DNA of 33,821 bases. It comes from a virus. Its lineage: Duplodnaviria > Heunggongvirae > Uroviricota > Caudoviricetes. The position numbers were made by a program. The stretch lies in IMG/VR virus record IMGVR_UViG_2671180458_000002. The stretch is one strand, 5' to 3'. Shown here in pieces: positions 6,001-8,841 of this stretch (its first letter is position 1; each line of letters opens with the position of its first letter).

Positions 6001-8841
6001 TTCGTTGACATGAGGTTGCCCCGTATTCAGTGTCGCTGATTTGTATTGTCTGAAGTTGTTTTTACGTTAAGTTGATGCAGATCAATTAATACGATACCTG
6101 CGTCATAATTGATTATTTGACGTGGTTTGATGGCGTAGATGCACGTTGTGACATGTAGATGATAATTATTATCATTTTGCGGGTCCTTTCCGGCGATCCG
6201 ACAGGTTACGGGGCGGCGACCTCGCGGGTTTTCGCTATTTATGAAAATTTTCCGGTTTAAGGCGTTTCCGTTCTTCTTCGTCATAACTTAATGTTTTTAT
6301 TTAAAATACCCTCTGAAAAGAAAGGAAACGACAGGTGCTGAAAGCGAGCTTTTTGGCCTCTGTCGTTTCCTTTCTCTGTTTTTGTCCGTGGAATGAACAA
6401 TGGAAGTCAACAAAAAGCAGCTGGCTGACATTTTCGGTGCGAGTATCCGTACCATTCAGAACTGGCAGGAACAGGGAATGCCCGTTCTGCGAGGCGGTGG
6501 CAAGGGTAATGAGGTGCTTTATGACTCTGCCGCCGTCATAAAATGGTATGCCGAAAGGGATGCTGAAATTGAGAACGAAAAGCTACGCCGGGAAGTTGAA
6601 GAACTGCGGCAGGCTAGCGAGACAGATCTCCAGCCAGGGACTATTGAGTACGAACGCCATCGACTTACGCGTGCGCAGGCCGACGCACAGGAGCTGAAAA
6701 ATGCCAGAGACTCCGCTGAAGTGGTGGAAACCGCATTCTGTACTTTCGTGCTGTCGCGGATCGCAGGTGAAATTGCCAGTATTCTCGACGGGATCCCCCT
6801 GTCGGTGCAGCGGCGTTTTCCGGAACTGGAAAACCGACATGTTGATTTCCTGAAACGGGATATCATCAAAGCCATGAACAAAGCAGCCGCGCTGGATGAA
6901 CTGATACCGGGGTTGCTGAGTGAATATATCGAACAGTCAGGTTAACAGGCTGCGGCATTTTGTCCGCGCCGGGCTTCGCTCACTGTTCAGGCCGGAGCCA
7001 CAGACCGCCGTTGAATGGGCGGATGCCAATTACTATCTCCCAAAAGAATCCGCATACCAGGAAGGGCGCTGGGAAACACTGCCCTTTCAGCGGGCCATCA
7101 TGAATGCGATGGGCAGCGACTACATCCGTGAGGTGAATGTGGTGAAGTCTGCCCGTGTCGGTTATTCCAAAATGCTGCTGGGTGTTTATGCCTACTTTAT
7201 AGAGCATAAGCAGCGCAACACCCTTATCTGGTTGCCGACGGATGGTGATGCCGAGAACTTTATGAAAACCCACGTTGAGCCGACCATCCGCGATATTCCG
7301 TCGCTGCTGGCGCTGGCTCCGTGGTATGGCAAAAAGCACCGGGATAACACGCTCACTATGAAGCGTTTTTCCAATGGTCGTGGCTTCTGGTGCCTGGGCG
7401 GTAAAGCGGCAAAAAACTACCGTGAAAAGTCGGTGGATGTGGCGGGTTATGATGAACTTGCTGCCTTTGATGAGGATATTGAACAGGAAGGCTCTCCGAC
7501 GTTCCTTGGCGACAAACGTATTGAAGGCTCGGTCTGGCCAAAGTCCATCCGTGGCTCCACGCCCAAAGTGAGAGGCACCTGCCAGATTGAGCGTGCAGCC
7601 AGTGAATCCCCGCATTTTATGCGTTTTCATGTTGCCTGCCCGCACTGCGGGGAGGAGCAGTATCTTAAATTTGGCGACAAAGAGACGCCGTTTGGCCTCA
7701 AATGGACGCCGGATGACCCCTCCAGCGTGTTTTATCTCTGCGAGCATAATGCCTGCGTCATCCGCCAGCAGGAGCTGGACTTTACTGATGCCCGTTATAT
7801 CTGCGAAAAGACCGGGATCTGGACCCGTGATGGCATTCTCTGGTTTTCGTCATCCGGTGAAGAGATTGAGCCGCCGGACAGTGTGACCTTTCACATCTGG
7901 ACGGCGTACAGCCCGTTCACCACCTGGGTGCAGATTGTCAAAGACTGGATGAAGACGAAAGGGGATACGGGAAAACGTAAAACCTTCGTGAACACCACGC
8001 TCGGTGAGACATGGGAAGCGAAAATTGGCGAACGTCCGGATGCTGAGGTGATGGCGGAGCGGAAAGAGCATTATTCAGCGCCCGTTCCTGACCGTGTGGC
8101 TTACCTGACCGCCGGTATCGACTCCCAGCGGGACCGCTACGAAATGCGCGTATGGGGATGGGGGCCGGGTGAGGAAAGCTGGCTGATTGACCGGCAGATT
8201 ATTATGGGCCGCCACGACGATGAACAGACGCTGCTGCGTGTGGATGAGGCCATCAATAAAACCTATACCCGCCGGAATGGTGCAGAAATGTCGGTATCCC
8301 GTATCTGCTGGGATACTGGCGGGATTGACCCGACCATTGTGTATGAACGCTCGAAAAAGCATGGGCTGTTCCGGGTGATCCCCATTAAAGGGGCATCCGT
8401 CTACGGAAAGCCAGTGGCCAGCATGCCACGTAAGCGAAACAAAAACGGGGTTTACCTTACCGAAATCGGTACGGATACCGCGAAAGAGCAGATTTATAAC
8501 CGCTTCACACTGACGCCGGAAGGGGATGAACCGCTTCCCGGTGCCGTTCACTTCCCGAATAACCCGGATATTTTTGATCTGACCGAAGCGCAGCAGCTGA
8601 CTGCTGAAGAGCAGGTCGAAAAATGGGTGGATGGCAGGAAAAAAATACTGTGGGACAGCAAAAAGCGACGCAATGAGGCGCTCGACTGCTTCGTTTATGC
8701 GCTGGCGGCGCTGCGCATCAGTATTTCCCGCTGGCAGCTGGATCTCAGTGCACTGCTGGCGAGCCTGCAGGAAGAGGATGGTGCAGCAACCAACAAGAAA
8801 ACACTGGCAGATTACGCCCGTGCCTTATCCGGAGAGGATGA

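What the first reader, a model, noticed from the sequence alone, without database searches (positions are those of the whole stretch)
6150..6400. Intact lambda-identical cos site (cosQ-cosN-cosB)
The junction ...ACAGGTTACG | GGGCGGCGACCTCGCGGG... reproduces the annealed lambda ends, and the sequence up to the nu1 ATG matches the lambda left end. An intact cos inside a chromosome means lambda terminase would cut here and could package adjacent host DNA, and lambda-based cosmid tools would interact with this locus.
Basis: partly seen in the sequence, partly recalled or inferred. Interest (0 to 1): 0.35.

Follow-up and report, generated by a model that had tools for sequence, protein, structure and literature searches.

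The report
Prophage's own lambda-type cos site
This is the normal DNA-packaging (cos) site of a complete lambda-like prophage sitting at the well-known DLP12/argU locus of E. coli; it is real and looks functional, but it is ordinary and already described.

Summary
The junction ACAGGTTACG|GGGCGGCGACCT occurs once, at window 6201-6222, with lambda nt 1 at 6211. From there to the nu1 ATG (6400), cosN, I2 and cosB (R3, I1, R2, R1) are base-for-base identical to resequenced lambda. The only difference from J02459 is the missing G138, which modern lambda records also lack.

"Lambda-identical" is slightly overstated. The cosQ arm has 4 substitutions inside the minimal functional cos (lambda 48446-182) and 9 in the last 76 bp. 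All lie outside the GGGTCCT cosQ core. This arm is the commonest natural variant; lambda's own is the minority.

The site is not a stray cos in a chromosome. It is the cos of a full-length lambdoid prophage, the undeleted counterpart of K-12 DLP12, with attR at 33712-33749. Nu1 is 179/181 and gpA 637/641 identical to lambda. Near-identical free phages exist, and the segment occurs in 4595 of 5426 complete E. coli genomes.

Cutting of a prophage cos by a same-specificity terminase, and abortive packaging of adjacent host DNA, are already in the literature. No second cos lies within packaging range.

Verdict: already known, low interest.

The parts
6155..6179 (.). Fur-box-like palindrome (GTAGATGATAATTATTATCATTTTG) 2 bp upstream of cosQ. 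It is adjacent to cos and is not an established cos subsite.
   Evidence: 16/19 match to GATAATGATAATCATTATC at 6161-6179 (- strand). It is the only site with <=4 mismatches in the window, against 0.05 expected. The homologous sites upstream of K-12 nohA (gel-shifted by Fur) and nohB are reported in PMC2189734.
6181..6187 (+). cosQ core heptamer GGGTCCT (lambda 48473-48479), the packaging-termination signal.
   Evidence: Identical to lambda. GGGTCCTTTC is kept in IMG/VR cos arms whose upstream sequence is unrelated. A 7-bp, highly conserved cosQ is stated in PMC4669245. The exact lambda coordinates are from memory of Wieczorek & Feiss 2001, which was not held.
6209..6224 (.). [quoted passage not shown] The expected top-strand nick is at 6210|6211 and the bottom-strand nick at 6222|6223.
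   Evidence: Single exact match in the window. Identical to lambda. Symmetry at flank positions 7 and 8. The Figure 1 legend of PMC9026076 describes these flanking bp. Nick positions are inferred from lambda.
6228..6260 (+). I2, the AT-rich segment between cosN and cosB (lambda bp ~18-50). It is needed for a post-cleavage initiation step and for termination.
   Evidence: Identical in sequence and length to lambda. Extent and role are from PMC4856287.
6260..6275 (+). cosB R3 (lambda 50-65), a small-terminase (Nu1) binding site.
   Evidence: AGGCGTTTCCGTTCTT at 6260, identical to lambda 50-65. The R3 extent is from PMC9026076. Recovered as direct repeat D2 and inverted repeat I2.
6276..6318 (.). 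I1, the IHF-binding and bending segment between R3 and R2. The best IHF consensus match is at 6289-6301 (- strand).
   Evidence: YAANNNNTTGATW match with 1 mismatch at 6289-6301. Identical to lambda. Role is from PMC4669245 and PMC4856287.
6319..6334 (-). cosB R2, inverted relative to R3 and R1.
   Evidence: Reverse complement of CTGTCGTTTCCTTTCT at 6319, equal to lambda 109-124. Inverted repeat I1 with R1.
6360..6375 (+). cosB R1.
   Evidence: CTGTCGTTTCCTTTCT at 6360, equal to lambda 151-166 in J02459 numbering.
6400..6945 (+). nu1 (annotated nohD in E. coli genomes): terminase small subunit, 181 aa.
   Evidence: 179/181 identical to lambda Nu1 (A75T, L132I). Residues 1-74, which include the N-terminal DNA-binding domain, are identical.
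6920..8845 (+). A: terminase large subunit, 641 aa.
   Evidence: 637/641 identical to lambda gpA and 640/641 to phage PhiR68_2. The one private change is L404R (w8130 T>G).
33712..33749 (+). attR: a 3' fragment of tRNA-Arg (argU) ending in CCA, marking the right prophage boundary. Host flank follows.
   Evidence: Sequence read directly. Free phage records stop at about 33749-33753, while chromosomes match on to 33796. The K-12 DLP12 annotation ends at the equivalent place.

Best explanation
Window 6181-6375 is the cohesive-end (cos) site of a full-length lambdoid prophage integrated at argU. This prophage is the undeleted counterpart of the K-12 cryptic prophage DLP12.

In the integrated state, cos lies inside the late transcription unit, in the order quuD, porin, essD, rrrD, rzpD, bor, ylcI, cos, nu1, A...J, stf, tfa.

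Inferred mechanism, by identity with lambda:
1. [quoted passage not shown]
2. This positions gpA to nick cosN 12 nt apart (6210|6211 on the top strand, 6222|6223 on the bottom strand).
3. Terminase stays on the cosB end, docks on a prohead and translocates DNA rightwards, from nu1 towards J.
4. Packaging ends at the next cos of the concatemer, which is recognised through cosQ, cosN and I2.

Because cosN, I2, cosB and the Nu1 DNA-binding domain are identical to lambda's, the site has lambda packaging specificity. It would also be cut by a superinfecting lambda-specificity phage. From the unexcised prophage, that gives only abortive packaging of about 27.5 kb of prophage DNA plus about 21 kb of host DNA.
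For: Shown:
- Unique junction, with exact identity of 6211-6399 to resequenced lambda.
- R3/R1 direct repeats and R2 inverted, recovered blind by repeat search.
- IHF consensus between R3 and R2.
- cosQ core intact.
- Nu1 179/181 and gpA 637/641 identical to lambda.
- All lambda head and tail ORFs present at full length, and no pseudogenes annotated in a 100.0%-identical chromosome.
- Synteny with K-12 DLP12, which shares the same cosQ-arm haplotype.
- attR argU fragment followed by host flank.
- Phage isolates cover the late region: Turner covers window 25-25000 at 98.5%. PhiR68_2 has an identical 321-bp cos region, and ev243 and 2G7b carry the right end.
- The cos segment is present in 4595 of 5426 complete E. 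coli genomes.

From the literature:
- cos subsite roles (PMC4669245, PMC4856287, PMC9026076).
- Initiation at a prophage cos by a same-specificity infecting phage, giving tailless particles (PMC4669245).
- Lambda x DLP12 recombination hotspot at cos (PMC3945230).
Against: - No experiment here shows cleavage.
- The four cosQ-arm substitutions inside the minimal cos (48459, 48467, 48471, 48486) have not been tested individually. However, an identical arm is found in the phage record PhiR68_2 and is the commonest arm in IMG/VR.
- gpA carries a private L404R change. No full-length exact match to the 71-nt query spanning it was listed among 3248 matching E. coli records, and at most one record reached >=99% identity, so the resident terminase's activity is not guaranteed. 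R is, however, the natural residue at that position in a diverged gpA clade (15 of 66 homologues scored at that position).
- The early region, int/xis and attL lie outside the window, so inducibility is unknown. The closest complete genome has an IS3 element in the nin region.
Confidence: 0.95

Rival explanations
1. A relic cos in a decayed, packaging-dead cryptic prophage like K-12 DLP12, retained only by chance or for host-domesticated functions.
For: - The locus is the DLP12 locus.
- In K-12 the same cos sits next to a truncated A gene (aaaD), and its cosB has drifted, including a C53T change in R3.
- The window's gpA has a private L404R substitution.
- The closest genome has an IS3 insertion upstream.
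Against: - Here nu1, A, W, B, C, D, E, FI, FII, Z, U, V, G/T, H, M, L, K, I, J, lom, stf and tfa are all open and full length, apart from an in-frame 22-codon shortening of H.
- cosB has none of the K-12 DLP12 mutations.
- Free phages with the same late region exist.
Confidence: 0.12
2. The cos of a phage satellite (an enteric PICI) that hijacks lambda-like helper terminase.
For: PICIs carry lambda-like cosQ and cosN at the same spacing (PMC9026076 and PMC6739421).
Against: - PICI cos sites lack the phage cosB R sequences and are followed by rpp, not nu1. Here R3-I1-R2-R1 are lambda-identical.
- They are followed by nu1/A and a complete virion module.
Confidence: 0.01
3. Laboratory lambda, cosmid or vector sequence (contamination or an engineered insertion) rather than a natural prophage.
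For: cosN and cosB are 100% identical to laboratory lambda.
Against: - The cosQ arm carries the natural DLP12-type haplotype, not lambda's.
- Over window 5900-6700, which spans the cosQ arm, cos and the first 301 nt of nu1, identity to lambda is only 98.0%.
- The flanks are nmpC-type porin/essD/rrrD and ompT/attR-argU, as in thousands of wild E. coli.
Confidence: 0.01

Closest known systems
Bacteriophage lambda cos (cosQ-cosN-I2-cosB with R3-I1-R2-R1)
   Same: - The cohesive-end sequence, I2, R3, I1, R2, R1 and spacing to the nu1 ATG are identical to resequenced lambda.
- The cosQ heptamer and its spacing to the nick are identical.
- The Nu1 DNA-binding domain is identical.
   Different: - There are nine substitutions in the last 76 bp of the right-end arm, four of them inside the 238-bp minimal cos. 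One is T>C at 48486, between cosQ and cosN.
- Upstream of about lambda 48100 the sequence is unrelated to lambda; ybcV and ybcW are absent.
cos of the E. coli K-12 cryptic prophage DLP12 (upstream of nohD/nohB)
   Same: - Same chromosomal locus and gene order: quuD, nmpC, essD, rrrD, rzpD, bor, ylcI, cos, nohD ... ybcY, ompT, attR.
- Same cosQ-arm haplotype.
   Different: - K-12 DLP12 has lost everything between the 5' part of A and tfa.
- It carries point changes in R3, I1 and near the nu1 start, plus one next to cosQ.
- The window has the complete, undecayed version.
Lambdavirus isolates and induced ECOR prophages (Turner, PhiR68_2, PhiR30_1, ev243, 2G7b)
   Same: - PhiR68_2 is identical over the 321-bp cos region.
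- Turner covers window 25-25000 at 98.5% and carries the ompT/hydrolase/methyltransferase right end.
   Different: Those records are deposited as phage genomes, whereas the window shows the integrated form with attR. The window's H is 22 codons shorter, and its gpA has L404R.

Membership tests
Lambda-type cos site with complex cosB | 12-nt 5' cohesive-end sequence with flanking two-fold symmetry (cosN) | tested here: met
   GGGCGGCGACCT at 6211-6222, a single copy identical to lambda. Symmetric bp lie at 6209/6224 and 6210/6223.
Lambda-type cos site with complex cosB | 7-bp cosQ upstream of cosN at lambda spacing | tested here: met
   GGGTCCT at 6181-6187, with 23 bp to the top-strand nick as in lambda. 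The heptamer is conserved in divergent arms.
Lambda-type cos site with complex cosB | Three R sequences in the order R3-I1-R2-R1, with R2 inverted and an IHF site between R3 and R2 | tested here: met
   R3 at 6260-6275, R2 at 6319-6334 (inverted), R1 at 6360-6375. An IHF consensus lies at 6289-6301.
Lambda-type cos site with complex cosB | cosN-cosB spacing (I2) preserved | tested here: met
   No indel between 6211 and 6347 relative to lambda.
Lambda-type cos site with complex cosB | Adjacent small-terminase gene whose winged-HTH matches the R-site specificity | tested here: met
   Nu1 residues 1-74 are identical to lambda.
Lambda-type cos site with complex cosB | Site-specific staggered nicking by terminase, and packaging | not testable with these tools
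   Needs an in vitro cos-cleavage assay or end-mapping after induction.
Integrated DLP12-type (argU) lambdoid prophage | attR carrying a 3' argU fragment, followed by host DNA | tested here: met
   33712-33749 ...GGTTCGAATCCTGCAGGGCGCGCCA. Phage records end there and chromosomes continue.
Integrated DLP12-type (argU) lambdoid prophage | attL, integrase and the immunity region | not tested
   These lie outside the window. The closest genome has a repressor, O/P and exo/bet/gam upstream, but int and attL were not examined.
Lateral-transduction platform (in situ packaging that yields transducing particles) | Packaging from the unexcised prophage can be completed, either by headful cutting or by a second cos 38-51 kb downstream | tested here: not met
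   cos phages need cosQ-cosN to terminate. No second cosN is present in 6223-33821 or 27-56 kb downstream in proxy genome KY174.
PICI (satellite) cos | Lacks the helper's cosB R sites and is followed by rpp | tested here: not met
   Full lambda cosB, followed by nu1/A.

The most novel reading that the evidence does not exclude
The Fur-box palindrome 2 bp upstream of cosQ (6155-6179) may be a functional part of the cos region. It is kept next to GGGTCCT even in cos arms whose upstream sequence is unrelated. It could make leftward or rightward transcription across cos iron-responsive, including terminase (nu1/nohD) expression from the repressed prophage. Alternatively, bound Fur could modulate packaging termination at cosQ. 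Fur binding to the K-12 nohA homologue is published, but no role in phage biology is known.
Probability: 0.1. Interest if true: 0.4.

Novelty: already known. Interest (0 to 1): 0.08.

Why it matters
It matters little beyond correct annotation. The region marks the packaging origin and direction of an apparently complete lambdoid prophage at the DLP12 locus. It also shows what the ancestral, undeleted DLP12 looked like.

Practically, a lambda-specificity phage or helper growing in such a strain would cut here. That would waste some proheads on abortive prophage/host packaging and stimulate recombination at cos. Both effects are already documented for lambda and DLP12.

Tried and rejected
- **Ungapped comparison with J02459.** It appeared to break down at lambda 139. 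This turned out to be the single-base G138 discrepancy of J02459, which modern lambda records share with the window.
- **Source for the cosQ coordinates.** Wieczorek & Feiss 2001 (PMC1461673) is not held, and a text search for GGGTCCT with cosQ found nothing relevant. The coordinates therefore rest on memory plus the conservation seen.
- **Is T>C at 48486 a defect?** No. C is the majority allele, 109 against 16.
- **Does L404R kill gpA?** No full-length exact match was listed in complete E. coli genomes, but R is natural in a diverged gpA clade, so it is probably tolerated. A literature search on D401 returned only T4 gp17 papers. The proximity of residue 404 to a lambda catalytic residue is therefore unverified.
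- **Second cos within packaging range.** None found.
- **tRNA scan.** No intact tRNA in the window, which is consistent with attR holding only a fragment.
- **Paper describing the PhiR (ECOR) phages.** The search did not find it.
- **Script access to loci.** Several fetched loci were not available to scripts, so alignments used the alignment tool instead.

Full report
**1. Observation**

ACAGGTTACG|GGGCGGCGACCTCGCGGG occurs once, at window 6201-6228, so lambda nucleotide 1 corresponds to window 6211. A 55-nt cosQ-to-I2 pattern has one match, against 0 expected in 100 dinucleotide-preserving shuffles. The bare 12-mer has no other copy in the window, even with 2 mismatches allowed.

I aligned the region with annealed lambda ends (J02459, loci L001 and L002), with a resequenced lambda (PV340536) and with DE3 (EU078592). 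Window 6211-6399 is identical to the two modern lambda records. It differs from J02459 only by lacking G138, which those records also lack. The nu1 ATG is at 6400.

The right-end side is not identical to lambda:
- 48486 T>C (w6194)
- 48471 A>G (w6179)
- 48467 C>T (w6175)
- 48459 C>T (w6167)
- 48444 T>C (w6152)
- four changes at 48427-48432

Similarity to lambda ends altogether near lambda 48100.

**2. Anatomy**

A blind repeat search recovers the cosB architecture: a direct repeat for R3/R1, an inverted repeat for R2/R1 and an inverted repeat for R3/R2. Exact positions are as follows.

| Subsite | Window | Lambda | Source |
|---|---|---|---|
| cosQ core GGGTCCT | 6181-6187 | 48473-48479 (from memory) | |
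| cosN cohesive-end sequence | 6211-6222 | 1-12 | |
| I2 | about 6228-6260 | about 18-50 | PMC4856287, |
| R3 | 6260-6275 | 50-65 |; extent from PMC9026076, |
| I1, best IHF match | 6289-6301 | 79-91 | 1 mismatch, |
| R2 (inverted) | 6319-6334 | 109-124 | |
| R1 | 6360-6375 | 151-166 (J02459) | |

The exact lambda coordinates of cosQ are from my memory of Wieczorek & Feiss 2001, which the library does not hold. That cosQ is a highly conserved 7-bp element is stated in PMC4669245. Consistent with this, GGGTCCTTTC persists in IMG/VR cos arms whose upstream sequence is otherwise unrelated.

The published minimal functional cos insert is lambda 48446-182 (PMC4856287), which equals window 6154-6391. 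Within it there are four substitutions, all in the cosQ arm and outside the heptamer.

**3. Are the arm substitutions defects?**

Probably not, for three reasons:
- Among IMG/VR viral contigs with an exact cosQ-cosN match, C at lambda 48486 outnumbers lambda's T by 109 to 16.
- The window's 75-nt arm is the single commonest arm, 36 of 136, against 12 for lambda's.
- The phage record PhiR68_2 (PV340576, host listed as ECOR13) is identical to the window across the whole 321-bp cos region.

K-12 DLP12 carries the same arm haplotype.

**4. Context**

The window is a lambdoid prophage, not bare chromosome. The closest complete genomes match at 100.0% over 25 kb (JNEC-KY174, JNEC-KY202, CFIAFB20190167; FHI_NMBU_11 at 99.9%).

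The KY174 annotation gives this order: ybcN, ninE, ybcO, rusA, ylcG, quuD, porin, essD, rrrD, rzpD, iss/bor, ylcI, [cos], nohD (= nu1), terminase large subunit, W, portal, S49 protease, D, E, FI, FII, Z, U, V, G, T, H, M, L, K, I, J, lom, tail fibre, tfa, methyltransferase (ybcY), hydrolase, ompT, envY. No pseudogenes are annotated in the virion module.

This is the gene order of K-12 DLP12. In K-12, everything between the 5' part of A (aaaD) and tfaD has been deleted. The K-12 cosB has also drifted, including a C53T change in R3.

The right prophage boundary lies in the window. A 3' fragment of argU ending in CCA is at 33712-33749. Free phage records (Turner, PhiR49_1, ev243, 2G7b and others) match up to about 33749-33753, whereas chromosomes continue to 33796. 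ARAGORN finds no intact tRNA, as expected for attR.

**5. Terminase**

Nu1 is 179/181 identical to lambda (A75T, L132I), with residues 1-74, including the DNA-binding domain, unchanged. gpA is 637/641 identical to lambda and 640/641 identical to PhiR68_2.

The one private change is L404R (w8130 T>G). It is absent from KY174, Turner, PhiR68_2 and lambda. Of 3248 matching complete E. coli records, every listed full-length match to the 71-nt query has one mismatch, and at most one record reached >=99% identity. R is, however, the native residue at that position in a diverged gpA clade: AGIDSQRNRFE in 15 of 66 IMG/VR homologues scored at that position. It is therefore probably tolerated. This bears on the resident enzyme, not on the DNA site.

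**6. Mechanism**

These steps are inferred from identity with lambda; subsite roles come from PMC4669245, PMC4856287 and PMC9026076.
1. [quoted passage not shown]
2. gpA nicks 6210|6211 on the top strand and 6222|6223 on the bottom strand.
3. Terminase stays on the cosB end and DNA is translocated rightwards, from nu1 towards J.
4. Packaging terminates at the next cosQ-cosN-I2 on a concatemer.

Free relatives are 45-50 kb long, which fits cos-to-cos packaging.

**7.

Lambda-specificity terminase should indeed recognise this site. But a cos in the middle of an integrated lambdoid prophage is the rule, and its consequences are already described.

Feiss et al. 2015 (PMC4669245, section on the genetic consequences of the shared lambda/N15 packaging specificities) state the outcome directly. 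An infecting phage of the same specificity initiates packaging at the prophage cos. It encapsidates adjacent bacterial DNA, stalls when the head is full, and yields tailless non-infectious particles.

Termination needs a downstream cos. None exists in the 27.6 kb of window downstream. None exists 27-56 kb downstream in the proxy genome KY174 either. There, a 48.5-kb headful would run through envY, ybcH, nfrAB, an ISEc1/vgr island and cusSRCFB into cusA.

De Paepe et al. 2014 (PMC3945230) measured lambda x DLP12 recombination across this very cos region. They report 98% identity over 3353 bp, 10 of 19 junctions next to cos, and DLP12 nu1 functional in lambda. K-12 cloning hosts thus already contain the homologous site.

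The 321-bp segment occurs in 4595 of 5426 complete E. coli genomes. The median is 2 places per genome, and 804 records match at >=99%.

**8. Rivals**

- **Decayed relic cos.** Disfavoured by the complete virion module and the undecayed cosB, but inducibility is untested.
- **PICI cos.** Excluded by the lambda cosB and by nu1/A.
- **Laboratory lambda or cosmid.** Excluded by the natural arm haplotype, by the 98.0% (not 100%) identity to lambda over window 5900-6700 (the cosQ arm, cos and the first 301 nt of nu1), and by the native flanks.

**9. Seen in passing**

A Fur-box-like palindrome sits immediately upstream of cosQ, at 6155-6179. It matches the Fur consensus at 16/19 and is the only such site in the window. 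It corresponds to Fur sites already reported upstream of K-12 nohA (gel-shifted by Fur) and nohB (a 25.3-bit cluster) (PMC2189734). Its role in phage biology is unknown.

**10. Verdict**

The feature is the ordinary, already-known cos of a lambdoid prophage. Interest is low.

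Noticed in passing
window 6155-6179: A Fur-box-like palindrome lies 2 bp upstream of cosQ and overlaps a sigma70-like hit (GTGACA-16-TATCAT, 6148-6175). It matches the Fur consensus at 16/19 and is the only such site in the window. It is conserved next to GGGTCCT in several otherwise unrelated cos arms. The homologous K-12 sites upstream of nohA and nohB are published Fur sites (PMC2189734), but no phage function is known.
   Followed up: partly
window 8130 (gpA codon 404): A private T>G SNP gives L404R in the large terminase. It is absent from lambda, Turner, PhiR68_2 and KY174, and every listed full-length match among 3248 E. coli records has a mismatch across this 71-nt stretch. 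R is, however, the native residue in a diverged gpA clade (AGIDSQRNRFE). It could be neutral, a defect or a sequencing error.
   Followed up: partly
window 1-33750 as a whole: The window is a full-length version of the K-12 cryptic prophage DLP12, with the same late-region and right-end genes and argU attR. All head and tail genes are intact. ompT, an alpha/beta hydrolase and the ybcY methyltransferase lie inside the prophage, and free phages (Turner, ev243, 2G7b, the PhiR series) also carry them. ompT is therefore phage cargo here.
   Followed up: partly
window 16749-19244: The tape-measure gene H encodes 831 aa, against 853 aa in lambda and in the otherwise 100%-identical KY174 prophage. This is an in-frame 66-bp deletion, which would predict a slightly shorter tail.
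   Followed up: no
window 5506-5816, between bor and ylcI: The lambda/DLP12 genes ybcV and ybcW (lambdap78 and lambdap79) are absent here, as in PhiR68_2. Similarity to lambda's right arm begins only at about lambda 48100.
   Followed up: no
lambda J02459 nt 138 (window 6347|6348): The reference record J02459 has an extra G at position 138, between R2 and R1. It is absent from the window, DE3, a resequenced lambda, PhiR68_2 and K-12 DLP12. This is a reference discrepancy, not a feature of the window.
   Followed up: yes
L006 11170-12383 (E. coli JNEC-KY174, just left of the window's start): The closest complete genome has an IS3-family insertion in the nin region, immediately upstream of the point where the window begins. 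Two other 100%-identical strains have an ISEc8 insertion inside the 25-kb late region. Some members of this prophage lineage are therefore being inactivated.
   Followed up: no
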